Shown here: positions 21,481 to 64,000 of the stretch, one piece after another | Layout of the letters: each line of letters begins with the position of its first letter | Numbering within the stretch: position 1 is the first letter of the stretch | DNA from: a phage | Length of the DNA: 64,000 nt | Direction: 5' to 3' (one strand) | Assembly: GCA_028909515.1 (NCBI GenBank) | Contig: GCA_028909515.1_4811.1 | The notes under the pieces: generated by a model | Database searches by the model: none | What the model was told of the DNA's origin: nothing | Seen by the model: the letters and a program-made list of their open reading frames with translations, nothing else | Program-made: the position numbers and the translations under genes

Positions 21481-23868
21481 ATGCCAAGGCTAATATTCAA
21501 AAACAACTTTGAGGTCGCGCTTGCCCAGCCAACGACGACTTCAGACACCACCATCACAATTCGCTCAGGGTCGGGCTTTCCGACCTTGGGCGCAAACGAG
21601 CGTGTAGTGGCGACAATAGTCGACGCTGCGACAGGCCTCCAATTCGAAATCATCACAGTAACCGCCGTCGTCGGTGATGTCCTGACCGTTCAGCGTGCAC
21701 AGGAAGGGACTGCAGCGCGTGCATGGGCTGCTGGTGATTTGCTTTCCATTCGAACTACTGCTGCATCTTTGACCAACACCGTCCGAAATTACGGCGCAAT
21801 GCCATCAGGCATCAACTTGAATGCTCTTACAGGAAGTTGGTTTGGACAGTATTATCAGCCAGTAAGCTCAAATGCGCCAACAAACTTGAACTACCCAATA
21901 GCAGAGGCTGGCGTTTTACAAGTACTTCAAACTTCTGCAAATGGTTCAGAAAGCTGCATCCAAATATATACCACTTTTCAAAATAACATCACATTCCAAA
22001 GGACTTTTGTTGAATTATCAAGTTCATGGTCTAACTGGTCGAGAATAAGAAGGTTTACCGACATAGTAGGCATAGAGGCTGGCGGAACAGGTCAAACAAC
22101 CATTCAGGGGATGAAGTCTGCTTTTGGATTCGGAACAGTCGCTGATCAAGACATCGTTCCAACTTCCATGGGCGGCACAGGGTCAGCCGACAACGCGCAA
22201 GCATGGTTGAATATTCGCCCTCAAGGTTCAACGCCGCTTGCTGGCGACCCAGTGAATGATTATGATGCCGCGACCAAGCGTTGGGTAGAGAACTTGGTGA
22301 ACACAGGCACCGTTGGCCCAAGCATGAACGGTGTAATGAACTATGGCGTCGGCGACTTCCACTTGCGTGACAGTCGTGCATACATTCAACCATACGAAGT
22401 TGTTGCCGATGGGCAGTTGTTAAACCGCGCTGACTGGCCTGAGCTTTGGGCTTATGCGCAAATGCTTACGCCTATTGCTGATGCCGACTGGCTTGCTGAC
22501 CCACTTAAGCGCGGCAAGTATTCTTCAGGCAACGGCACAACAACATTCCGTGTACCAGACCGTAACGGTGTTCAGACAGGCAGCGTCAGAGCGCTATTTG
22601 CGCGCGGTGATGGCGGCAACTCGTCGAACGACGGAATGATCATGGAATCCTTCCTGCCAAACATCACTGGCAGCATCAACTTCCACGGGTCCGGCCCTGC
22701 AAGTGAACCAGGATCGGGAACGGTTGTCGCAAGTGCTGGCGGCGCATTCGTCAATGGAGAAGGATTCACCATTCCGCGATATGTTAGAGGCGTTTCGCTT
22801 TTAAGTTCTGGTGCGAACTCTTTGGGAAGCGTTGCGCTAAGAGCTTCTAACTCAAGCCCAGCTTACGGTCGTAACAACCTTGCAACAGATGAAGTATTGC
22901 CGCGCAACTTTTCAGGCGTTTGGGTTATTCGTGCATCTGGTGGATTTGTTGCTGCTAAAACTTCTTGGGAGGTTGTGAACGGTGACTCAGTTCTTCCAGG
23001 CCCAGGTACCACTGTTGACGGCGGCGAAGTAAAATCAAAATATAATGTTGGAACGACTCTGCAAGCCCAATTTAGTATGCGCGCACGCGCAGACGTTGGC
23101 GGGAACTATTATGGGCGTTTGAGCGTTTATAATGCTGCAAAAAGCGTCACCACTGTATATGATTTTGACGATACTGGTGCTATCACGCTTCCTCAAAACG
23201 CGTCAATAAGATCAGGGTCGATGAAATTCGACTTTGCCCAATCCACAGGCGAAGTGTATTGCGCCACCTCAAGATTGCGCGTCGCCCCGTTATCAGGCGG
23301 CCAAACGATGGGTATTACATCGCTCGGCGGCGGAGGCTTGCCTGCTGAAAGTGCCTGGTTCGAGCACTGGGGCAATAGCACAAGCGGAGGTTCAGACAGA
23401 ACGCGAGCGACAGTGGTTGAGTGCAAGGTTGGTGCTGATTACATGTGGTACTCGCAAAAGTTGACCACAGGAGCAAAAGAGTTGCGCGTCAACGGCGCTT
23501 GCATCGCAACGGCATTCACACAATCATCTGACAGAGACTTGAAAGAAAACATCCAAGTCATTCCAGATGCAACGGCAGCTTTGAGAAAGATGAGCGGCTA
23601 TACATACACCTTAAAAGAGGATGGCATGCCGCATGCTGGTGTCATAGCGCAAGAAGCAATGGAAGCGATTCCAGAGGCTGTCGGCTCTCAATATAAATAT
23701 CCAGAAGGTGATGAAGAAGGACTAATCCCTGAAAGATATTACACCGTTGACTATTCTGCAGTCACAGGCCTTCTGGTTCAAGTTTGTCGTGAAGCTGATG
23801 AAAGAATAACGGCGCTTGAAGAGAGGATTGCGAATCTGGAAGCGTTAATAAAAAGTATGGCGAAATAA
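21481..23868 (+). CDS. tail fibre protein with C-terminal intramolecular chaperone (peptidase S74-like) domain
   Basis: 795 aa; C-terminal 'SSDRDLKENIQVIP...GVIAQE...LIPERYYTVDY' matches the auto-cleaving chaperone domain of phage fibres and endosialidases; terminator follows. Confidence 0.8.
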   Translation: MPRLIFKNNFEVALAQPTTTSDTTITIRSGSGFPTLGANERVVATIVDAATGLQFEIITVTAVVGDVLTVQRAQEGTAARAWAAGDLLSIRTTAASLTNTVRNYGAMPSGINLNALTGSWFGQYYQPVSSNAPTNLNYPIAEAGVLQVLQTSANGSESCIQIYTTFQNNITFQRTFVELSSSWSNWSRIRRFTDIVGIEAGGTGQTTIQGMKSAFGFGTVADQDIVPTSMGGTGSADNAQAWLNIRPQGSTPLAGDPVNDYDAATKRWVENLVNTGTVGPSMNGVMNYGVGDFHLRDSRAYIQPYEVVADGQLLNRADWPELWAYAQMLTPIADADWLADPLKRGKYSSGNGTTTFRVPDRNGVQTGSVRALFARGDGGNSSNDGMIMESFLPNITGSINFHGSGPASEPGSGTVVASAGGAFVNGEGFTIPRYVRGVSLLSSGANSLGSVALRASNSSPAYGRNNLATDEVLPRNFSGVWVIRASGGFVAAKTSWEVVNGDSVLPGPGTTVDGGEVKSKYNVGTTLQAQFSMRARADVGGNYYGRLSVYNAAKSVTTVYDFDDTGAITLPQNASIRSGSMKFDFAQSTGEVYCATSRLRVAPLSGGQTMGITSLGGGGLPAESAWFEHWGNSTSGGSDRTRATVVECKVGADYMWYSQKLTTGAKELRVNGACIATAFTQSSDRDLKENIQVIPDATAALRKMSGYTYTLKEDGMPHAGVIAQEAMEAIPEAVGSQYKYPEGDEEGLIPERYYTVDYSAVTGLLVQVCREADERITALEERIANLEALIKSMAK

Positions 23869-57109: not shown

Positions 57110-57625
57110 ATGATAGAAAGAATTGTACCGCTCCTGAAGATTCTGGCCCTTGTTGGCGCGTTTGCCGCTGGATCATACGTTGAAGACCTGCAGCAAACCA
57201 ACGCATCACTGGCCAAGGATAATCAATATCTGACATCGCTTAATGAGCGTAAGGACAAGATAAATGCACTCGAAGAGCAAATTGCAACTTTACAGGTTGA
57301 ATCGGCATCGGCATATGAGAAGGGTCGCCAGGAAGCGCAACTGGTTGCTGATGACACTATTGCTCGTTACAAGTCTGGGAATGTCAAGTTGCGCGAGCAA
57401 CTCAGCTGCTCCCGTGAGTTACTCAGGAGTGTGCCCGACTCTGCGACCACTGGACGCCTCTCTATCCCAGAAGGAAACTGTGGACTATCAGAAGAGGATG
57501 TCAGATTTCTTGTTCAGTTCGCCGCAGAAACAAATCGATTAAAAGAGAAAGTTAATAGCTTGATTGATACTTATAATCAGGCTAAAATAAAAATCGATCA
57601 ATTCAATGCATCAAAGGAAAAATAA
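57110..57625 (+). CDS. i-spanin-like (Rz-type) protein
   Basis: N-terminal TM 'IVPLLKILALVGAFAAGSYV' then long coiled-coil region; contains an embedded +1-frame lipoprotein-like ORF. Confidence 0.45.
   Translation: MIERIVPLLKILALVGAFAAGSYVEDLQQTNASLAKDNQYLTSLNERKDKINALEEQIATLQVESASAYEKGRQEAQLVADDTIARYKSGNVKLREQLSCSRELLRSVPDSATTGRLSIPEGNCGLSEEDVRFLVQFAAETNRLKEKVNSLIDTYNQAKIKIDQFNASKEK
57315..57542 (+). CDS. embedded o-spanin-like lipoprotein (Rz1-type, tentative)
   Basis: +1 frame inside 57110..57625: basic n-region 'MRRVARKR', hydrophobic core, lipobox-like 'LGMSSC', Pro-rich mature part with a second Cys. Confidence 0.35.
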   Translation: MRRVARKRNWLLMTLLLVTSLGMSSCASNSAAPVSYSGVCPTLRPLDASLSQKETVDYQKRMSDFLFSSPQKQID

Positions 57626-58249
57626 ATGAAACAGATTTATGCAAACATTCGCCAGTGGGCTTCTGACCGTAACATCATCCAAGGTTGCGACCTTAAGGAC
57701 CAATACCCGAAGCTTATCAGCGAGTTTGGGGAGTTAACCGACCACGTTGATCAACTCCATGACCTTGTGTTCTTCGACCCTGAAATTGGATATACAGAGC
57801 AGGCCATCTGTGACTTGCAAGCTGCAATCAAGGACGACATTGGCGATTGTCTTGTTGTGTTGACCATCCTGGCGGCGCAAAACGGTACTGAAATCGAAAA
57901 CATTAATGGCGGCGGTTGTGCTGATAAAGGCGCTCACCCTCATTCATTCATCCTTCGCCTGGCAAAGACCCTTGGACGGCTTGGTGATGCTATTGCTAAG
58001 AATCAGACCATGGATATTGACGTCACCATCATGGCCGCAGTCGATTACCTTTCCGGCGTAGCTCATGATTATGGCCTTCGCTTATCCGACTGTGCGCAAG
58101 CGGCCTACGAAGACATCAAGGACCGCAAAGGTGTCATGTACAACGGAACGTTCATCAAATCTACTGATCCAGCTTATGAGCACTCCTGCAAAATGGTAAA
58201 GAAGCTGGAACTTGAAGACCGTGTGATCAGAGAAGTTACAGGACAATAA
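57626..58249 (+). CDS. MazG-like nucleoside triphosphate pyrophosphohydrolase
   Basis: 'LISEFGELTDHV' and 'DDIGDCLVVLTILA' fit the MazG E-x-x-E / D-x-x-G-D metal-binding pattern. Confidence 0.55.
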   Translation: MKQIYANIRQWASDRNIIQGCDLKDQYPKLISEFGELTDHVDQLHDLVFFDPEIGYTEQAICDLQAAIKDDIGDCLVVLTILAAQNGTEIENINGGGCADKGAHPHSFILRLAKTLGRLGDAIAKNQTMDIDVTIMAAVDYLSGVAHDYGLRLSDCAQAAYEDIKDRKGVMYNGTFIKSTDPAYEHSCKMVKKLELEDRVIREVTGQ

Positions 58250-58251
58250 TT

Positions 58252-59214
58252 ATGACAGCATTAAAACCAATGAAGGGTTGCCAACGTAAGCAGATTATCG
58301 AGCGCGGCGAGGACGTGCCGCTGCCTTGCGGACTGTCATTCAAGGTCGATGGCATACGTGCAATGGCGTATGACAACTTGCCAATGGGCACTTCCGGCAT
58401 GCCGTTGCGCAACGTTCAAATCAAAAAAGAGTTCCTCTTTTTGGGTGAACTAATTCACGGACTTGATGGAGAGCTAATCGACGGAAATCCAAATGATAAG
58501 AACGTCATGCAACAGGCCTATACTGCATGCATGAATACTGATGCAATCACTAACTTTACATGGTGGGTGTTTGATGACTTCAGCGACCCTGATCTGCCTT
58601 TTGAAAAGCGTTATGCAAACTATCGAGCTAGAGTTGCTGAAGTTAATCAGCATCTCATCAACCATGGTCGACGCCCATTCCTTCGCGCTCTCGAATATCG
58701 AAACATCGAAAATATGGAACAGTACGCGGCGATGCAAATCGAAGCAGACCAGCTTGGATATGAAGGCTTGTATGGCAAGTCTTGGACGGGCAAATATAAG
58801 CATGGCCGCGCGACGCCGAAGTCACGTGATGTGTGGAAGGACAAGCCGTGGACCGATGAAGAAGGGTTGATCATAGACTTCGTTGAGATGATGGAGAACA
58901 ACAACGAAGCATTCATTGACGAATTGGGTCGCACCAAGCGTTCAAAAGAGGCTGAAGGTTTAGTTGCGAAAGGATACCTTGGCTCATTCGTAGTCGTCAA
59001 TCCAAAATATGTGGATGAGAAAGGTGAAATGATTCCTTTCCGCGTCTCCGCTGGTTCAATGCCTATGGCAGAGCGTAAAATGCTTTGGGAGAATCGCGAG
59101 AACTATCGCGATAAATACCTAACGTATAAATTCTTTAACTTTGGCATCGTCGACGTGCCGCGCTCTGCTTTGTATAAATGCTTCCGTGATATTACCGATA
59201 TGGAGTATTTTTAA
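58252..59214 (+). CDS. ATP-dependent DNA ligase
   Basis: Nucleotidyltransferase motif I 'FKVDGIRAM' (K-x-D-G-x-R); size comparable to small phage ligases. Confidence 0.7.
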   Translation: MTALKPMKGCQRKQIIERGEDVPLPCGLSFKVDGIRAMAYDNLPMGTSGMPLRNVQIKKEFLFLGELIHGLDGELIDGNPNDKNVMQQAYTACMNTDAITNFTWWVFDDFSDPDLPFEKRYANYRARVAEVNQHLINHGRRPFLRALEYRNIENMEQYAAMQIEADQLGYEGLYGKSWTGKYKHGRATPKSRDVWKDKPWTDEEGLIIDFVEMMENNNEAFIDELGRTKRSKEAEGLVAKGYLGSFVVVNPKYVDEKGEMIPFRVSAGSMPMAERKMLWENRENYRDKYLTYKFFNFGIVDVPRSALYKCFRDITDMEYF

Positions 59215-60162: not shown

Positions 60163-60185
60163 AAAGGCCCATATGGGCCTTTTTC
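60163..60185. terminator. bidirectional rho-independent terminator between convergent genes
   Basis: Perfect palindrome GGCCCATATGGGCC flanked by an A-run upstream and T-run downstream. Confidence 0.65.
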
Positions 60186-60830
60186 TTACATAACTGCTAG
60201 TGCATCCTTGTAACGCTTCCTTCGCAAATCCCCATGGTTAGCCGTATTCGGCGCGGCCCCGTTAATCCGCTTAACGGTTGAATCAAAATTTCCTGCATCA
60301 GCAAGAGGAATACAGCCGCTATTCTTAAAGAACCATGCCGCGCTGTCAGCGATGTATTTTGGTTCAGTCAGAATATCAGGATTGTTCAATGCGTCATAGC
60401 CTGATTGACGTGTATATTCCGCATAGTTCGCTTTGCCAGTCAGCTGAATGGCACCACGGCCACGGTACTTCCAACCGTCGCCCGATGCTACCGAACCGTT
60501 GCCCATGCGGTTTGCATATGTATTATTGGCGATTTCCATTGGTTTACGGGCAATCGACAATGCCAAGGAGTTGGGTGCACCGCCGAAACGACCGCTGGCG
60601 CTGTAACGGCTAGGCCATGTATTAGCAAGACCTTGAGCGGAATAATTCAAGTTTTCCACAAATGTCTTCAGGCTGCCTGTTTCCACTCCTACGTTTGCAA
60701 GCAACGCCGCGATGGCATTCTTGCTTTTGATTCCGTAGTGCTCACAAGCCTGCTTGAAAGGGTCCACCCATTTCTCTGCAACATCCATGCTGCATCCGGT
60801 CCCTTTAGATATTACGTTTGCATTAATCAT
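60186..60830 (-). CDS. endolysin, glycoside hydrolase family 19-like
   Basis: 'ANVGVETGSLKTFVENLNYS' and 'GDGWKYRGRGAIQLTGKANY' match GH19 catalytic-region patterns. Confidence 0.7.
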   Translation of the reverse strand: MINANVISKGTGCSMDVAEKWVDPFKQACEHYGIKSKNAIAALLANVGVETGSLKTFVENLNYSAQGLANTWPSRYSASGRFGGAPNSLALSIARKPMEIANNTYANRMGNGSVASGDGWKYRGRGAIQLTGKANYAEYTRQSGYDALNNPDILTEPKYIADSAAWFFKNSGCIPLADAGNFDSTVKRINGAAPNTANHGDLRRKRYKDALAVM

Positions 60831-60838
60831 AAATCACC

Positions 60839-62626
60839 TTATGCGCTTCTGTACCAGCCGTTCAAGACGACATATCGCGGCAGAGTTGAAACAGCCGTTG
60901 GGACGGACTGTCCTGCATCGCCAGTATTTCCGACCACATCGTGAGTGTGAGCGGGAAGGGTATAGCTATGGCTGTGATTGCCAGCGTAATTTATATTCAA
61001 CCCATGGGTGTGTGACCCAGAAGATTGGATATTGTGGACGTGGTTGCCGTTAGTCGAGGTGTTGTATTTGTAGTTATCCCAGTCGCCGCCCTTTCGACTG
61101 CCGAAGTTGTTGTGCGTATTGTCATACACGCCATACCGCGCATCATTCGTATTCGATTCACCCCAGCTACTGTCATGGTGGTGGTTGCCTGCTGAATCCA
61201 TTCCGTGCACGTGAGCACCGTTTTGACTGGTATCGCCTGTGTGGTTATGGTTGCCTGCGCCTCCAGTGGTGTTGGACCACGGACCACTCTGTCGCGTAGT
61301 TATGTTCACGCTGTGATTGTGGAGAGGAAGCATGGCGGCGGTAAGGGTGACAGAGTCCGCGCCGCCAGTGGCAAGACCGTTTCGTGCCGTGCCGGATGTT
61401 CTGATGACCATGTTATCAGGCAATCTGGTCCACACCTGTCCATAAGCGCCAAGCTTGGTGTTTGGGTTGGTGCCATTGGTCAGGAATCGAGTCTCGCCGA
61501 CTTCGAATACATCACCCATGGTAATCAACTTTTCAGCAAGCGCATCAAGCTGTCTTTTGGTGACAAACTGCTGCGGCTCAGTAGCATCCACGCCGATTTG
61601 CGCCGCGCCGAATGCTTGAAGAAGACGCCAAACGTTGCCGTCATAAATAATAGTAAAAGGAAGAAGCCCGACGATGGACCCTGCTGGCAGCTCGCCGCCG
61701 TCGAATCCAAGGACTGCAACTTTGTTTGCACCAATGGTCACGGTAACAGGTCCGGTAGTTGTGACATCATTGACAATTGTCAGGCGACTACCTGCTGACG
61801 GCGGCCATGCATAACCTGCCGGAACGGTAAGGATTATATCTTGTGCACCTTTACCTGATGCAAGATTCGGCGTGCCGATTTGCACGTCTTGAACAGTTGC
61901 ATTTTGAATCCAGGCACTCCAAGCACCAGAAGTGTAAGAGCGGGTGAAAACATATCGGTTCATTGACGTGTATTGTTGCAGGGCGAAAGTCTGCGCATCA
62001 ACCTGCCAAGCGCAAACCTGGAGACGACCTGCAACCTTCGTCGCACCAACCGCGTTCGGGATGTTAGAGCAGAGAGCGGCAACGGTGTCAGATTGAATGA
62101 CAATAGTTGTGGAAGTCGTGATATTATCAAAGTCCACAAAGTTTGAAATCAGTCCGCGAACAAAATACGGGTTTTGCGCATCGCCGCCAGCAGGCATAGG
62201 AATATATTTTCTCGCTTCGCTAGGCAGCGTCAATTCCTGCCAAGATTCCGTTTCGCCGTTAGCTGGGACTGCGCTGGTGTTGCCGTCAACCACGCTCTGG
62301 AAAATGCGCCATTCAGGCGCTGAAGGGGTGCCAGAGTTGCTGACAACGATGGCATTTTTCGGGTATCCATCTGGCTTCAAGTCAGACGAGAAATACTGTT
62401 GAGCGCCGTGGTCCTGGATGAACATAAGGTTGTCGGTGATCAGATTCAGCAACCAGTTCATCGACTCACGTTCAACGGCTTTCGCGGCGACGTTTCCGGC
62501 TTCCAGGGCAAGTGCGTAGTCAGGGGTGTAGCCGCGCTGGAAGTTTACATAACCGCTTGGACTTGCATCCGGCACCACGGATACATCACCGCTTTGCGCG
62601 AAAGGTCTATTAATAAGTGTTGGCAT
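60839..62626 (-). CDS. distal tail fibre / receptor-binding protein with His-rich tip
   Basis: Start set at 'MPTLINRPF' behind RBS AGAGGAA; C-terminal HxH-rich segment 'GNHNHTGD...HVHGMDSAGNHHHDS...NGNHVHNIQSSGSHTHG...HSHSYTLPAHTHD'. Confidence 0.7.
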   Translation of the reverse strand: MPTLINRPFAQSGDVSVVPDASPSGYVNFQRGYTPDYALALEAGNVAAKAVERESMNWLLNLITDNLMFIQDHGAQQYFSSDLKPDGYPKNAIVVSNSGTPSAPEWRIFQSVVDGNTSAVPANGETESWQELTLPSEARKYIPMPAGGDAQNPYFVRGLISNFVDFDNITTSTTIVIQSDTVAALCSNIPNAVGATKVAGRLQVCAWQVDAQTFALQQYTSMNRYVFTRSYTSGAWSAWIQNATVQDVQIGTPNLASGKGAQDIILTVPAGYAWPPSAGSRLTIVNDVTTTGPVTVTIGANKVAVLGFDGGELPAGSIVGLLPFTIIYDGNVWRLLQAFGAAQIGVDATEPQQFVTKRQLDALAEKLITMGDVFEVGETRFLTNGTNPNTKLGAYGQVWTRLPDNMVIRTSGTARNGLATGGADSVTLTAAMLPLHNHSVNITTRQSGPWSNTTGGAGNHNHTGDTSQNGAHVHGMDSAGNHHHDSSWGESNTNDARYGVYDNTHNNFGSRKGGDWDNYKYNTSTNGNHVHNIQSSGSHTHGLNINYAGNHSHSYTLPAHTHDVVGNTGDAGQSVPTAVSTLPRYVVLNGWYRSA

Positions 62627-62636
62627 TGCCGTTCCT

Positions 62637-64000
62637 CTACACGATGTATTTAATTTTTGATAAAAGGGTCGATGCCCAATCACCAGTTAAGTCAGTTATG
62701 TTCATGCTTGAAACATAACCACCAGCAGCACTTCTCGGAAAGTTTACTGTTGCTACAACATCACCATTAGAGGCAATCAATTGAACTCCAGTGGCAAGTG
62801 ATCCTGGGTTTTTGATGTATATAGAAGTTGCAGTTTTCTTTGCGAAATCTTCGCTTGTTGAAATTGCAAGCGCATTCATCGTATCGCCAGACACAAGCAT
62901 CAAGCTCAAAATATCAAGTTCAAGAGTTGTGCCAACTTCGGTCGGCAAGTCTTTCCCTGATATCAAGCCGATGCTGATGCCACCTGTTGATCCATCCCAG
63001 TTAGCTCCTGCCACAATCTCAGCGGCAAGGTCAATCTCAATGCGCTGTAAATCACCAACACCGATGTTATAGAATTTAGGGATATAGCCGCCCATTCCAT
63101 CCGGTACAGTTACAAAAAGCTTTTGCCCGTTAACCGTGTTGTTTTTGACTATCGCAATGAATGATAAAGGACCAGTAAGCGTTCCAGTATATTTTGTTGC
63201 GAGAACGGCGCGTGCATAACCGGACGTTGGCACAGTCCCTATTGTAGCGGAAAGCTTGAATGATGGGAACTGGTTGGGCGCTCCGCTTATTGGCGTTGCC
63301 GTCACTGTGTTTGCACCATCCTTGACGATATTACCAAATGAAGTTCCATCATTCGGCTGAGTATAGCGCCAATAGTTTGTTATGGCTGCACGCGGAATTT
63401 CACGACCAAAGTCATCGCGAGAAGCTTTTGAGATTGAATAGTCGTTGACAAGAGCGCCATCGACGACTTGGTTCACACCTTTCAAAGATTCAAGCTGGCG
63501 TATGACACCGTTGAAGTTGTTAAGCGGCCATTCGTTAATGCCGCCAACTCTGATGATGCCATCAGTGTTAATCCACGCAACGCCTTCCGTTTCAAATCCT
63601 ACTCGCGTATCCGTTATGTCGCTGACAGTCAAATCAATATCAGATAAGTCTGCGACTTCTTGGTAAAGCTGCCAACGTATTCCGGCATTTGCTGGCAAGA
63701 ATCCTTCATTCCTGTCGCCAACCAGCGTCTTAAAGTTGTCAGACAGTTTGTTGGCAAAATAAGGTCCGATGACGTATTCCATGTAATAGTCGTCGGTCGG
63801 CGGCGGCGGTACTCCATCCAGCCTGCTAACGTTCCATGAGCGTCTGATTCCATCAGTCTCTGCAATCAGCGTGGCGTTCCCTGGATACGGGTAGCCGCCG
63901 ATTGAGCCAGAGTATGCAAGTGATGAGCCAGGTTGCATGAATGACTCGCCAACTACACCGTTTCTTGTCGTCAGCGGCCCGTTTGCACAGGAGATGTTAT
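62637..64000 (-). CDS. tail fibre protein, partial (5' end beyond window end)
   Basis: Frame stays open upstream of the ORF-track Met at 63938 to the window edge; Gly/Thr/Ser/Asn-rich fibre-like composition. Confidence 0.6.
   Translation of the reverse strand, partial: NISCANGPLTTRNGVVGESFMQPGSSLAYSGSIGGYPYPGNATLIAETDGIRRSWNVSRLDGVPPPPTDDYYMEYVIGPYFANKLSDNFKTLVGDRNEGFLPANAGIRWQLYQEVADLSDIDLTVSDITDTRVGFETEGVAWINTDGIIRVGGINEWPLNNFNGVIRQLESLKGVNQVVDGALVNDYSISKASRDDFGREIPRAAITNYWRYTQPNDGTSFGNIVKDGANTVTATPISGAPNQFPSFKLSATIGTVPTSGYARAVLATKYTGTLTGPLSFIAIVKNNTVNGQKLFVTVPDGMGGYIPKFYNIGVGDLQRIEIDLAAEIVAGANWDGSTGGISIGLISGKDLPTEVGTTLELDILSLMLVSGDTMNALAISTSEDFAKKTATSIYIKNPGSLATGVQLIASNGDVVATVNFPRSAAGGYVSSMNITDLTGDWASTLLSKIKYIV

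What the first reader, a model, noticed from the sequence alone, without database searches (positions are those of the whole stretch)
60839..62626. Distal tail fibre with a dense histidine-box tip
The C-terminal ~90 residues contain many H-x-H and H-H-H motifs spaced by short Gly/Ser/Asn linkers. Established knowledge: the T4 long-tail-fibre tip (gp37) uses His boxes to coordinate metal ions in a needle-like receptor-binding domain. Unusually, this fibre gene is followed directly by the GH19 endolysin, not an adhesin or chaperone gene.
Basis: partly seen in the sequence, partly recalled or inferred. Interest (0 to 1): 0.4.

Follow-up and report, generated by a model that had tools for sequence, protein, structure and literature searches.

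The report
Conserved Wifcevirus tail fibre, gp37-like tip
This gene encodes the conserved baseplate-anchored tail fibre of a Wifcevirus coliphage; its histidine-rich tip is a real relative of the metal-stapled T4 gp37 needle, but it has already been described for this genus and the kind is common in phages, so the finding is ordinary.

Summary
The CDS at 60839..62626 (-) encodes 595 aa with eight HxH motifs, four before and four after a 44-aa central segment. They span aa 436-562, about 127 residues rather than the last ~90.

The window is a Wifcevirus, 95% identical in DNA to phage Bas101. A profile built from the C-terminal domain and its homologues hits the T4 gp37 tip crystal structure (2XGF, E 3e-8) and the gp10 collar-type domain. 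All 16 motif histidines are invariant in seven orthologues, while the two non-motif histidines vary. The gp37-like reading is therefore supported by sequence homology. The fold and the bound metal are not shown here.

- **"Distal":** aa 2-372 are homologous to the baseplate-docking part of Pbunavirus Pa193 gp47, so this is a whole fibre.
- **"Unusual" neighbour:** fibre followed by endolysin is simply the end of the late operon. It is conserved across the genus and is seen in an unrelated phage.

Humolli et al. 2025 already reported this fibre (ManiWeber "Gp32") as having a gp37-like tip with HxH motifs.

One small addition: the ~40-codon head cassette is a recombining hotspot with two main alleles.

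Interest is low.

The parts
60839..62626 (-). Complete CDS of the conserved Wifcevirus tail fibre (595 aa plus stop codon). It is the orthologue of Bas101_0031, Bas99_0031 and Mansfield_051.
   Evidence: ORF and translation. (29 Wifcevirus records cover at least 80% of the region at 80-99% nt identity; annotated as tail protein or tail fiber). (PHROG 5717 tail protein, E 3.6e-173).
61592..62626 (-). aa 1-345: N-terminal baseplate-binding region and 'bead' shaft domains. The boundary is approximate.
   Evidence: aa 2-372 align to Pa193 gp47 tail fibre (PDB 9b45), E 8.2e-31. PMC11456595: gp47 residues 1-340 form three beads, and bead I docks on baseplate wedge gp46.
61514..61591 (-). aa 346-371: linker segment (…QFVTKRQLDALAEKLITMG) between the shaft and the tip. 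Its role is inferred.
   Evidence: Sequence. It lies at the end of the gp47-homologous region and before the collar-type homology begins.
61322..61513 (-). aa 372-435: first part of the collar-type (Gp10_C-like) domain, ending in GGADSVTLTAAMLPLH.
   Evidence: aligned with homologues; P18, W29, G52 and P64 of the 225-aa query are invariant. (profile hits the T4 gp10 C-terminal domain 2fkk at E 2.2e-5). (all listed homologues carry PF21939 Gp10_C).
61175..61321 (-). aa 436-484: descending arm of the needle, with four HxH motifs at 436, 460, 472 and 482.
   Evidence: motif positions. (register with gp37 HTH and HSH). (match to 2xgf). (all motif histidines invariant in 7 orthologues).
61043..61174 (-). 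aa 485-528: small head (apex) domain, the presumed receptor-contacting tip. It is the most variable part of the protein and has a local resemblance to the T4 gp12 head around its Zn site.
   Evidence: 15 of 44 columns variable against 30 of 551 elsewhere, Fisher p 7e-8. (tip cassette at 64-72% nt identity between alleles, discordant with the N-terminal grouping). (gp12 similarity: database E 0.48, pairwise E 9e-5).
60941..61042 (-). aa 529-562: ascending arm of the needle, with four HxH motifs at 529, 539, 551 and 560.
60842..60940 (-). aa 563-595: return to the collar-type domain, with the C-terminal strand …LPRYVVLNGWYRSA.
   Evidence: W221, R223 and A225 of the 225-aa query are invariant or nearly so; the homologues' C-terminal consensus is …GWYRSA in A1/A2 and …MWRRTA in A3. 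(second matched stretch to the gp10 C-terminus, YITVYRWIRIA).
60186..60830 (-). GH19-type endolysin, the last gene of the same minus-strand late operon. It is a neighbour, not part of the fibre.
   Evidence: PF00182, 31.3 bits against a cut-off of 25.5. (PHROG 181 endolysin, E 1.6e-68). (8-nt gap containing GGTGA before the ATG).
60163..60182 (-). Intrinsic-terminator-like hairpin (AAAGGCCCATATGGGCCTTT followed by a T-run) that ends the late operon after the endolysin.
   Evidence: Terminators are annotated at the equivalent position in phages Mansfield and WFC.
62637..64000 (-). C-terminal 433+ aa of the upstream 912-aa protein; the ORF runs off the window. Its N-terminus in the Bas101 orthologue is the baseplate wedge-2/triplex subunit on which the fibre is expected to dock.
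   Evidence: ORF. (Bas101_0030, 2739 nt). (aa 4-186 of the Bas101 orthologue match Pa193 gp46 at E 1.4e-41 and E217 gp45 triplex at E 5e-41).

Best explanation
The gene encodes the genus-conserved, baseplate-anchored tail fibre of a Wifcevirus myophage, presumably a homotrimer.

Proposed anatomy:
- The first ~370 residues are the Pbunavirus-type attachment and bead domains. They dock on the wedge-2 (triplex) subunit encoded immediately upstream.
- The last ~225 residues are a T4 gp37-type receptor-binding tip. This comprises a collar-type (Gp10_C-like) domain; a needle in which the chain runs down, forms a 44-residue head and runs back up; and eight HxH motifs (4 down, 4 up).
- In the trimer, each HxH motif would place six imidazoles around one axial metal ion, as Fe2+ in gp37 and Zn2+ in gp12. 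That gives up to eight metal 'staples' that rigidify the needle.

Proposed function. The small head at the apex contacts the cell surface. The fibre is nearly invariant across phages isolated on different E. coli and Shigella hosts, whereas the second, T-shaped fibre is variable. The most likely role is therefore binding of a conserved secondary receptor (LPS core or a similar envelope structure) and/or transmitting the trigger to the baseplate, analogous to a T4 short tail fibre.

Shown here: the gene, the motifs, their invariance, homology to gp37/gp10 and to Pa193 gp47, synteny, and mosaicism of the head cassette.

Inferred: trimer, needle fold, metal binding, receptor.
For: Identity and conservation:
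- The region 60000-64000 matches 29 Wifcevirus genomes at 80-99% nt identity.
- The C-terminal domain is 89-98.5% identical in protein across all but one unverified Wifcevirus record (78%).
- The full-length protein is 95-98% identical in 7 orthologues.
- dN/dS is 0.02-0.09.

N-terminus and synteny:
- aa 2-372 match Pa193 gp47 (9b45) at E 8e-31.
- The upstream protein matches Pa193 gp46 at E 1.4e-41.
- The gp47-gp46 docking interface was resolved by cryo-EM (PMC11456595).

Tip:
- Eight HxH motifs in a 4+4 layout, against 3+4 in gp37.
- BLASTP against the gp37 tip gives E 1e-4 with motifs in register.
- The family profile hits 2xgf at E 3e-8, gp10 C-terminal domain 2fkk at 2e-5, and the A-1(L) long fibre 8kec at 6e-5.
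- At least 2,628 homologues were found. All 120 listed carry PF21939, and they hold 3-15 HxH motifs each.
- All 16 motif histidines are invariant, while non-motif H483 and H505 vary.

Head:
- Variation is concentrated there (15/44 columns against 30/551, p 7e-8).
- The cassette recombines between lineages.

Literature:
- Bas63 (Felixounavirus) fibres are described from cryo-EM maps and fitted models as having the same collar-needle-head tip with 6-7 HxH motifs (PMC12609058).
Against: - The query itself matches no Pfam family: none at E <= 0.1 for the full protein. For the C-terminal domain at E <= 10 there is only a faint PF14928 hit (E 1.9), with neither Collar nor Gp10_C.
- My AlphaFold2 monomer model of aa 371-595 was poor (mean pLDDT 59.8, pTM 0.29). 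Its Foldseek search of the PDB gave nothing significant; the best match was T4 gp10 at E 0.9. The needle fold is therefore not independently confirmed here.
- No experiment shows metal in this protein.
- The receptor is unknown. All four BASEL Wifcevirus isolates depend wholly on O16 O-antigen (PMC11990801), so a separate role for this fibre has not been demonstrated genetically.
- The gp12-like similarity of the head is only suggestive: database E 0.48, profile search with no hit, hhalign probability 3%.
Confidence: 0.78

Rival explanations
1. This fibre is the primary, host-range-determining O-antigen receptor-binding protein. Its head cassette alleles specify which O-antigen or LPS type is recognised.
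For: - The head is the most variable part of the protein and is exchanged by recombination.
- In T4 gp37 the head domain contacts the receptor (PMC12609058).
- The BASEL Wifcevirus isolates depend wholly on O16 O-antigen.
Against: - The protein is 95-98% identical across phages isolated on O157:H7, K-12(O16), ESBL E. coli and Shigella flexneri.
- Both main tip alleles occur in phages that need the same O16 antigen on the same K-12 host: Bas101 has the window-type allele and Bas99 the other.
- The genome carries a second, highly variable T-shaped fibre with dual receptor-binding domains (window 21481..23868). The literature assigns O-antigen recognition to that fibre (PMC11990801).
Confidence: 0.12
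2. The His-rich stretch is a compositionally biased, non-metal-binding beta-structured spacer. The similarity to gp37 would then reflect low-complexity G/S/N/H composition and not a shared metal-site architecture.
For: - The region is rich in N, G, H, S and T, and hmmsearch reports high bias for the 2xgf match.
- There is no Pfam hit.
- The monomer structure model is poor.
Against: - Composition-preserving shuffles reach 8 HxH motifs in only 10 of 100,000 trials.
- All 16 motif histidines are invariant while the two non-motif histidines vary.
- H-x-H spacing is kept across at least 120 diverse homologues with 3-15 motifs.
- Invariant columns in the 122-sequence alignment include six motif histidines: H66, H68, H102, H104, H183 and H190 of the query domain.
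- The non-biased collar parts also match gp10.
Confidence: 0.05
3. The fibre has a purely mechanical or structural role, such as a baseplate stabiliser or contraction trigger, with no specific receptor. This is the suggestion in the BASEL paper.
For: - Conservation across the genus is high.
Against: - The apex head is a localised hotspot of amino-acid change and recombination within an otherwise strongly constrained gene. This is the pattern expected of a surface that meets a host ligand.
- Homologous tips in T4 gp37 and gp12 bind receptors (established knowledge; PMC12609058).
Confidence: 0.2

Closest known systems
T4 gp37 long-tail-fibre tip (PDB 2XGF; collar-needle-head with seven Fe-binding HxH motifs)
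   Same: - HxH motifs lie on a descending and an ascending arm around a small head. The tip is framed by a collar-type domain whose last strand is the protein's C-terminus.
- Sequence homology is detectable: profile E 3e-8 and pairwise E 1e-4.
   Different: - Eight motifs (4+4) rather than seven (3+4).
- The collar part resembles the Gp10_C type; T4 gp37 carries the PF07484 Collar domain.
- The tip sits on a 595-aa single-protein fibre anchored directly to a simple Pbunavirus-like baseplate, not on the distal half of a four-protein long fibre.
- No gp38-like chaperone gene is adjacent.
- Metal content is untested.
ManiWeber (Bas99) 'Gp32' and the other Wifcevirus conserved tail fibres (Humolli et al. 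2025, PMC11990801)
   Same: This is the same protein family. The window protein is 95-98% identical to the orthologues examined here, including Bas99_0031 and Bas101_0031. The published AF3 trimer prediction shows a gp37-like elongated tip with conserved HxH motifs.
   Different: - The window is a different isolate, closest to Bas101 at 95% nt identity.
- The paper's gene number (Gp32) is offset from the GenBank locus tag (_0031), so the equivalence is inferred from position and content.
- The paper describes the fibre as invariable. I find a recombining two-allele head cassette.
Felixounavirus tail fibres (Bas63 gp26 short and gp27 long fibres; Felix O1 p44-like)
   Same: [quoted passage not shown]
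- The C-terminal domain is 30-33% identical to the window protein.
- The Mansfield annotators noted similarity to Felix O1 p44.
   Different: The N-terminal and shaft domains differ, as does the baseplate. The number of HxH motifs is different.
Pseudomonas phage Pa193 gp47 tail fibre (PDB 9b45) and E217 fibre (Pbunavirus)
   Same: - The N-terminal ~370 residues are homologous (E 8e-31).
- The gene order wedge-1, wedge-2/triplex, fibre is the same.
- Attachment to wedge-2 was resolved by cryo-EM.
   Different: Pa193 gp47 is 962 aa, and no similarity to the window protein was detected beyond residue ~370. The C-terminal receptor-binding module has been replaced.
T4 gp12 short tail fibre receptor-binding domain (PDB 1OCY/1H6W; single Zn bound by His445 and His447)
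   Same: - Local similarity of aa 482-524 (HHHDSSWGE…FGSRKGGDWDNYKYNT) to gp12 HKHAGGFGE…VGTRKGLDWDNRSYFT, 41% over 44 aa. An HxH motif aligns to the Zn-binding HxH of gp12.
- The proposed role as a conserved secondary binder is analogous.
   Different: - The similarity is not significant at database level (E 0.48; PF14928 E 1.9; hhalign probability 3%).
- The gp12 head is much larger and has one metal site rather than eight.

Membership tests
T4 gp37-type receptor-binding tip (collar-needle-head, PDB 2XGF) | Multiple HxH motifs on both a descending and an ascending arm flanking a central head segment | tested here: met
   Four motifs at aa 436-484 and four at aa 529-562 around a 44-aa segment. 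T4 gp37 has 3+4.
T4 gp37-type receptor-binding tip (collar-needle-head, PDB 2XGF) | Detectable sequence homology to the gp37 tip | tested here: met
   The profile of the query plus 7 homologues hits 2xgf_A at full-sequence E 3e-8 and domain E 2.4e-5. Pairwise BLASTP gives E 1e-4, 28% identity over 122 aa with motifs in register. Caveat: the composition is biased.
T4 gp37-type receptor-binding tip (collar-needle-head, PDB 2XGF) | Trimeric six-stranded needle fold with the histidines facing the threefold axis | tested here: inconclusive
   Only a monomer could be modelled: pLDDT 59.8, pTM 0.29. Foldseek against the PDB gave no hit with E < 0.9. A published AF3 trimer of the orthologue is reported as gp37-like (PMC11990801).
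T4 gp37-type receptor-binding tip (collar-needle-head, PDB 2XGF) | Metal ions (Fe2+ in gp37) bound octahedrally by the HxH histidines | not testable with these tools
   Indirect evidence only: all 16 motif histidines are invariant in 7 orthologues while non-motif histidines vary.
T4 gp37-type receptor-binding tip (collar-needle-head, PDB 2XGF) | Dedicated assembly chaperone encoded next to the fibre gene (gp38 in T4). This is a feature of T4 and is not required of the fold. | tested here: not met
   The endolysin follows after 8 nt. No product in the whole Bas101 record is annotated as a chaperone or assembly protein. Small hypothetical ORFs were not individually searched.
Pfam PF21939 Gp10_C / PF07484 Collar domain | Score above the Pfam gathering threshold | tested here: not met
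   The query has no hit to either family even at E <= 10. However, all 120 listed homologues carry PF21939, and the family profile hits the gp10 C-terminal domain 2fkk at E 2.2e-5.
Pbunavirus-type baseplate-anchored tail fibre (Pa193 gp47) | Homologous N-terminal baseplate-binding and bead domains | tested here: met
   aa 2-372 align to 9b45 gp47 residues 4-368, E 8.2e-31. PHROG 4900 matches at E 8.5e-45.
Pbunavirus-type baseplate-anchored tail fibre (Pa193 gp47) | Encoded directly downstream of the wedge-2/triplex subunit it docks on | tested here: met
   The N-terminus of the upstream 912-aa protein matches Pa193 gp46 at E 1.4e-41 and E217 gp45 at E 5e-41. Gene order is shown.
T4 gp12 short-tail-fibre receptor-binding domain (PF14928, PDB 1OCY) | Significant sequence match to the gp12 head domain, including the Zn-binding HxH | tested here: inconclusive
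   1ocy E 0.48. PF14928 E 1.9, 9.3 bits against a cut-off of 23.8. The tip profile found no gp12 hit in the PDB. Pairwise BLASTP gives E 9e-5, 41% over 44 aa. hhalign probability is 3%.

The most novel reading that the evidence does not exclude
The tip would be a chimera: a gp12-like, LPS-core-binding apex grafted onto a gp37-like needle with eight metal sites. On this reading, this 'conserved' fibre is the phage's irreversible-binding and trigger fibre. Its ~40-codon apex cassette, present as two anciently diverged alleles that recombine freely within the genus, would tune recognition of different conserved envelope structures such as LPS core types. That would give a minimal two-fibre system, with a variable O-antigen fibre and a cassette-switching core fibre, on a simple Pbunavirus-type baseplate.
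Probability: 0.2. Interest if true: 0.35.

Novelty: already known. Interest (0 to 1): 0.15.

Why it matters
It matters little beyond correct annotation. The gene should be labelled as the conserved, baseplate-anchored Wifcevirus tail fibre with a gp37-type HxH needle tip. GenBank records currently call it 'tail protein', 'tail fiber' or 'hypothetical protein'.

Tips of this kind are widespread. At least 2,628 homologues were found, with 3-15 HxH motifs each. They have been seen in cryo-EM work on Felixounavirus fibres and predicted for this very genus.

The only added value here is practical. The receptor-contacting head is a short recombining cassette with two main alleles. This gives a defined target for tip-swap experiments to find the still-unknown receptor of this fibre in a phage genus of interest for its reported very fast replication. 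The eight-site needle could also serve as a compact model for metal-stapled fibre folding without an adjacent chaperone gene.

Tried and rejected
- Pfam scan of the full protein and of the C-terminal domain gave no usable hit.
- An AlphaFold2 monomer model of aa 371-595 with a 122-sequence alignment had low confidence (pLDDT 59.8). Foldseek against the PDB found nothing significant, with T4 gp10 the best match at E 0.9. This is expected for an intertwined trimer. No multimer tool was available, so I did not spend the second job.
- A profile of the head region alone against the PDB returned only a chance hit at E 0.94 and no gp12. hhalign of that profile against the gp12 C-terminus gave 3% probability. 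The gp12 link therefore remains a lead, not a result.
- I considered that both fibres might share an N-terminal anchor. BLASTP of the HxH fibre against the T-shaped fibre (21481..23865) shows no convincing similarity, best E 0.015 over 53 aa.
- I considered positive selection as the cause of head variability and rejected it in favour of recombination. dS in the cassette is saturated, and its allele grouping is discordant with the N-terminal grouping.
- I looked for a chaperone in the annotation of the closest complete genome and found none annotated. This does not exclude a small unannotated one.
- The first homologue search with the single sequence returned only 7 distant proteins and none of the Wifcevirus orthologues themselves. 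The alignment-based search was needed to see the family.
Full report
**What the window is.** The region 60000-64000 matches 29 phage genomes, all Wifcevirus-type E. coli or Shigella myoviruses of about 68 kb. The best match is Escherichia phage VerenaGrendelmeier_Bas101 at 95.1% nt identity. In those records the gene under study is annotated 'tail protein', 'tail fiber' or 'hypothetical protein'. It always lies between a 912-aa hypothetical protein and the endolysin.

**Checking the observation.** The ORF at 60839..62626 (-) encodes 595 aa. A longer GTG-initiated reading (614 aa) overlaps the upstream gene. The ATG at 62626 has a GAGGA ribosome-binding site and is the start used in every annotated orthologue.

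There are eight HxH motifs, at aa 436, 460, 472, 482 (HHH), 529, 539, 551 and 560. Eighteen of the 19 histidines lie within aa 436-562. Shuffling aa 430-575 with composition preserved gives 2.1 ± 1.3 HxH motifs, and 10 of 100,000 shuffles reach 8.

The motifs occupy about 127 residues, not the last ~90. There is one HHH, which is HYH in some orthologues. The downstream gene (60186..60830, -) is a GH19-type endolysin and starts 8 nt after the fibre stop.

**Anatomy of the N-terminus.** Residues 2-372 align to the tail fibre gp47 of Pseudomonas phage Pa193 (PDB 9b45) at E 8.2e-31. In the cryo-EM study, gp47 residues 1-340 form three 'beads', and bead I docks on the baseplate triplex subunit gp46 (PMC11456595).

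The N-terminus of the 912-aa protein encoded just upstream of the Bas101 orthologue matches Pa193 gp46 'baseplate wedge 2' at E 1.4e-41 and E217 gp45 'triplex' at E 5e-41. The window holds only the C-terminal part of that upstream protein. The gene order wedge-1, wedge-2, fibre is thus syntenic with Pbunavirus.

This is a complete fibre anchored directly to the baseplate, not a 'distal' half-fibre. No similarity to gp47 was detected beyond residue ~370, so the receptor-binding module differs.

**Anatomy of the C-terminus.** A single-sequence search of the large protein database returned seven distant proteins at 28-36% identity, all carrying PF21939 (Gp10_C). A profile search returned at least 2,628 proteins, and all 120 listed carry PF21939. 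They hold 3-15 HxH motifs each, most often 7, 5 or 9.

In the 122-sequence alignment the invariant columns include six motif histidines, and the homologues' consensus ends …MWRRTA where the query has …GWYRSA.

The profile of the query plus seven homologues hits three solved structures:
- the T4 gp37 tip (2xgf) at E 3e-8;
- the T4 gp10 C-terminal domain (2fkk) at E 2.2e-5;
- the long fibre of cyanophage A-1(L) (8kec, identified) at E 6.4e-5.

T4 gp37 residues 781-1026 contain seven HxH motifs, three before and four after the head. Pairwise BLASTP against the query domain gives E 1e-4 with the motifs in register.

By established knowledge (Bartual et al. 2010, as summarised in PMC12609058), the gp37 chain leaves the collar, runs down the needle, forms the head and returns. 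Each HxH of the three chains coordinates one axial Fe ion.

By homology the window protein has this layout:
- collar part 1: aa 372-435;
- descending arm: aa 436-484, 4 HxH;
- head: aa 485-528;
- ascending arm: aa 529-562, 4 HxH;
- collar part 2: aa 563-595.

The boundaries are approximate and inferred.

**Limits of the structural evidence.** The query itself reaches no Pfam threshold. My AlphaFold2 monomer model was poor (pLDDT 59.8), and its Foldseek search gave nothing significant. That is unsurprising for an intertwined trimer, but it means the fold is not independently confirmed here. Metal binding cannot be tested computationally.

**Conservation.** Seven orthologues are 95-98% identical in protein, and dN/dS is 0.02-0.09. 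All 16 motif histidines are invariant, while the only other histidines in the tip, H483 and H505, vary. This selective invariance supports a functional role for the HxH pairs.

Variation is concentrated in the head: 15 of 44 columns vary, against 30 of 551 elsewhere (Fisher p 7e-8).

At nucleotide level the gene is a mosaic:
- The first 345 codons group {window, Bas101, Bas99, WFC} against {Mansfield, ECML-117, EC150}.
- The cassette at aa ~476-521 groups {window, Bas101, Mansfield} against {Bas99, WFC, ECML-117}, at only 64-72% nt identity between the groups. EC150 is intermediate, at 70-80% to the others.

For the 44-codon head (aa 485-528), synonymous sites are saturated against Bas99 and WFC. 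The head cassette has therefore been exchanged by recombination. Both main alleles occur in phages that require the same O16 antigen on the same K-12 host (Bas101 and Bas99), so the alleles do not simply determine O-type.

**A gp12-like apex?** Residues 482-524 resemble the T4 gp12 segment that starts at its Zn-binding His445-x-His447. Identity is 41% over 44 aa and includes G(S/T)RKG-DWDN (pairwise E 9e-5).

At database level this is not significant: 1ocy E 0.48, PF14928 E 1.9, no hit with a tip profile and hhalign probability 3%. Two Xenorhabdus prophage fibres share this head with the Wifcevirus protein. I treat the gp12 link as a lead only.

**The 'unusual' neighbour.**
- The fibre and endolysin are the last two genes of the minus-strand late operon. 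A terminator-like hairpin lies at 60182..60163, and terminators are annotated at the same position in Mansfield and WFC.
- The arrangement is the same in the seven Wifcevirus records whose annotation I inspected.
- In an unrelated metagenomic myophage, the HxH fibre homologue P0002 is followed by a 139-aa ORF, a holin and an amidase.
- In T4, gene 37 is followed by gene 38 and the holin.
- No product is annotated as a chaperone or assembly protein in the whole Bas101 genome, although many small ORFs are uncharacterised.
- Phage Sf14, which has a gp37-like tip, is reported to have single-protein fibres and no Mu-type chaperone homologues (PMC11821841).

The gene order is therefore ordinary. The absence of an adjacent chaperone is worth noting but is not exceptional.

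**What is already published.** Humolli et al. [quoted passage not shown] This was an AF3 prediction. They add that the fibre is highly conserved across the genus and may have 'a more mechanical role'. A second, T-shaped fibre with dual variable receptor-binding domains is proposed to target O-antigen.

The paper's gene numbers are offset from the GenBank locus tags: their Gp114 is Bas99_0109. Equating Gp32 with Bas99_0031 is therefore an inference from position and content.

The T-shaped fibre is present in the window at 21481..23868 (+). Cryo-EM work on Felixounavirus Bas63 describes the same collar-needle-head tips with 6-7 HxH motifs (PMC12609058). Felixounavirus fibres are the nearest non-Wifcevirus relatives of the window's tip, at 30-33% identity.

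**Verdict.** The gp37-like, probably metal-binding interpretation is supported by homology and selective conservation, but not by a structure or by chemistry. The 'distal' label and the 'unusual neighbour' claim are not supported.

The feature belongs to a large, known class and has already been described for this genus. The most likely function is a conserved secondary-receptor or trigger fibre, analogous to a short tail fibre. I put that at about 0.5 and the structural reading at about 0.8. The one modest new detail is the recombining two-allele head cassette.

Noticed in passing
window 61064-61201 (aa 476-521 of the fibre): Within an otherwise strongly conserved gene (dN/dS 0.02-0.09), a ~40-codon head cassette exists as two anciently diverged main alleles at 64-72% nt identity, with synonymous sites saturated. 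Their distribution among Wifcevirus genomes is discordant with that of the N-terminal 345 codons, which indicates recombinational exchange of the tip apex. The published description calls this fibre invariable.
   Followed up: yes
window 21481-23868 (+): This is the phage's second tail fibre, a 795-aa protein (PHROG 6921, E 1e-178). It corresponds to the variable 'T-shaped' dual-RBD fibre of the BASEL paper and is encoded far from the tail module. It shows no convincing N-terminal similarity to the HxH fibre, so how both attach to the baseplate is unclear.
   Followed up: partly
window 62637-64000 (-), running off the window; L001 14638-17376: The upstream 912-aa protein has an N-terminal ~186 aa homologous to the Pbunavirus wedge-2/triplex subunit (504 aa in Pa193). 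It also has a ~400-aa C-terminal extension with no annotated function (PHROG 4797, unknown function). It may be an extra baseplate-peripheral or fibre-network domain.
   Followed up: partly
P0001 and P0018 (Xenorhabdus prophage tail fibres); L010 5001-5933: Two Xenorhabdus tail fibres share the Wifcevirus head motif (HDSGWGE…ARYGVYDNT…DNYKY[NK]TST), but on a needle with only four HxH motifs. This suggests that head modules and needle length vary independently. In L010 the fibre gene sits alone, next to non-phage genes and a transposase.
   Followed up: no
PMC11990801 compared with GenBank PQ850618.1: Gene numbers in the BASEL paper (Gp32, Gp114) do not match the deposited locus tags. The conserved tail protein is Bas99_0031, Bas99_0032 is the endolysin, and the T-shaped fibre is Bas99_0109. 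Anyone mapping the paper to the records should beware of this.
   Followed up: yes
window 57110-57625 and 57264-57542 (+); 57626-58249; 58252-59214: An embedded i-spanin/o-spanin pair, a MazG-like pyrophosphatase and an ATP-dependent DNA ligase lie on the opposite strand, converging on the fibre-endolysin operon. The lysis genes are therefore split: the spanins are about 3 kb from the endolysin and on the other strand. No holin is annotated nearby in the related records.
   Followed up: no
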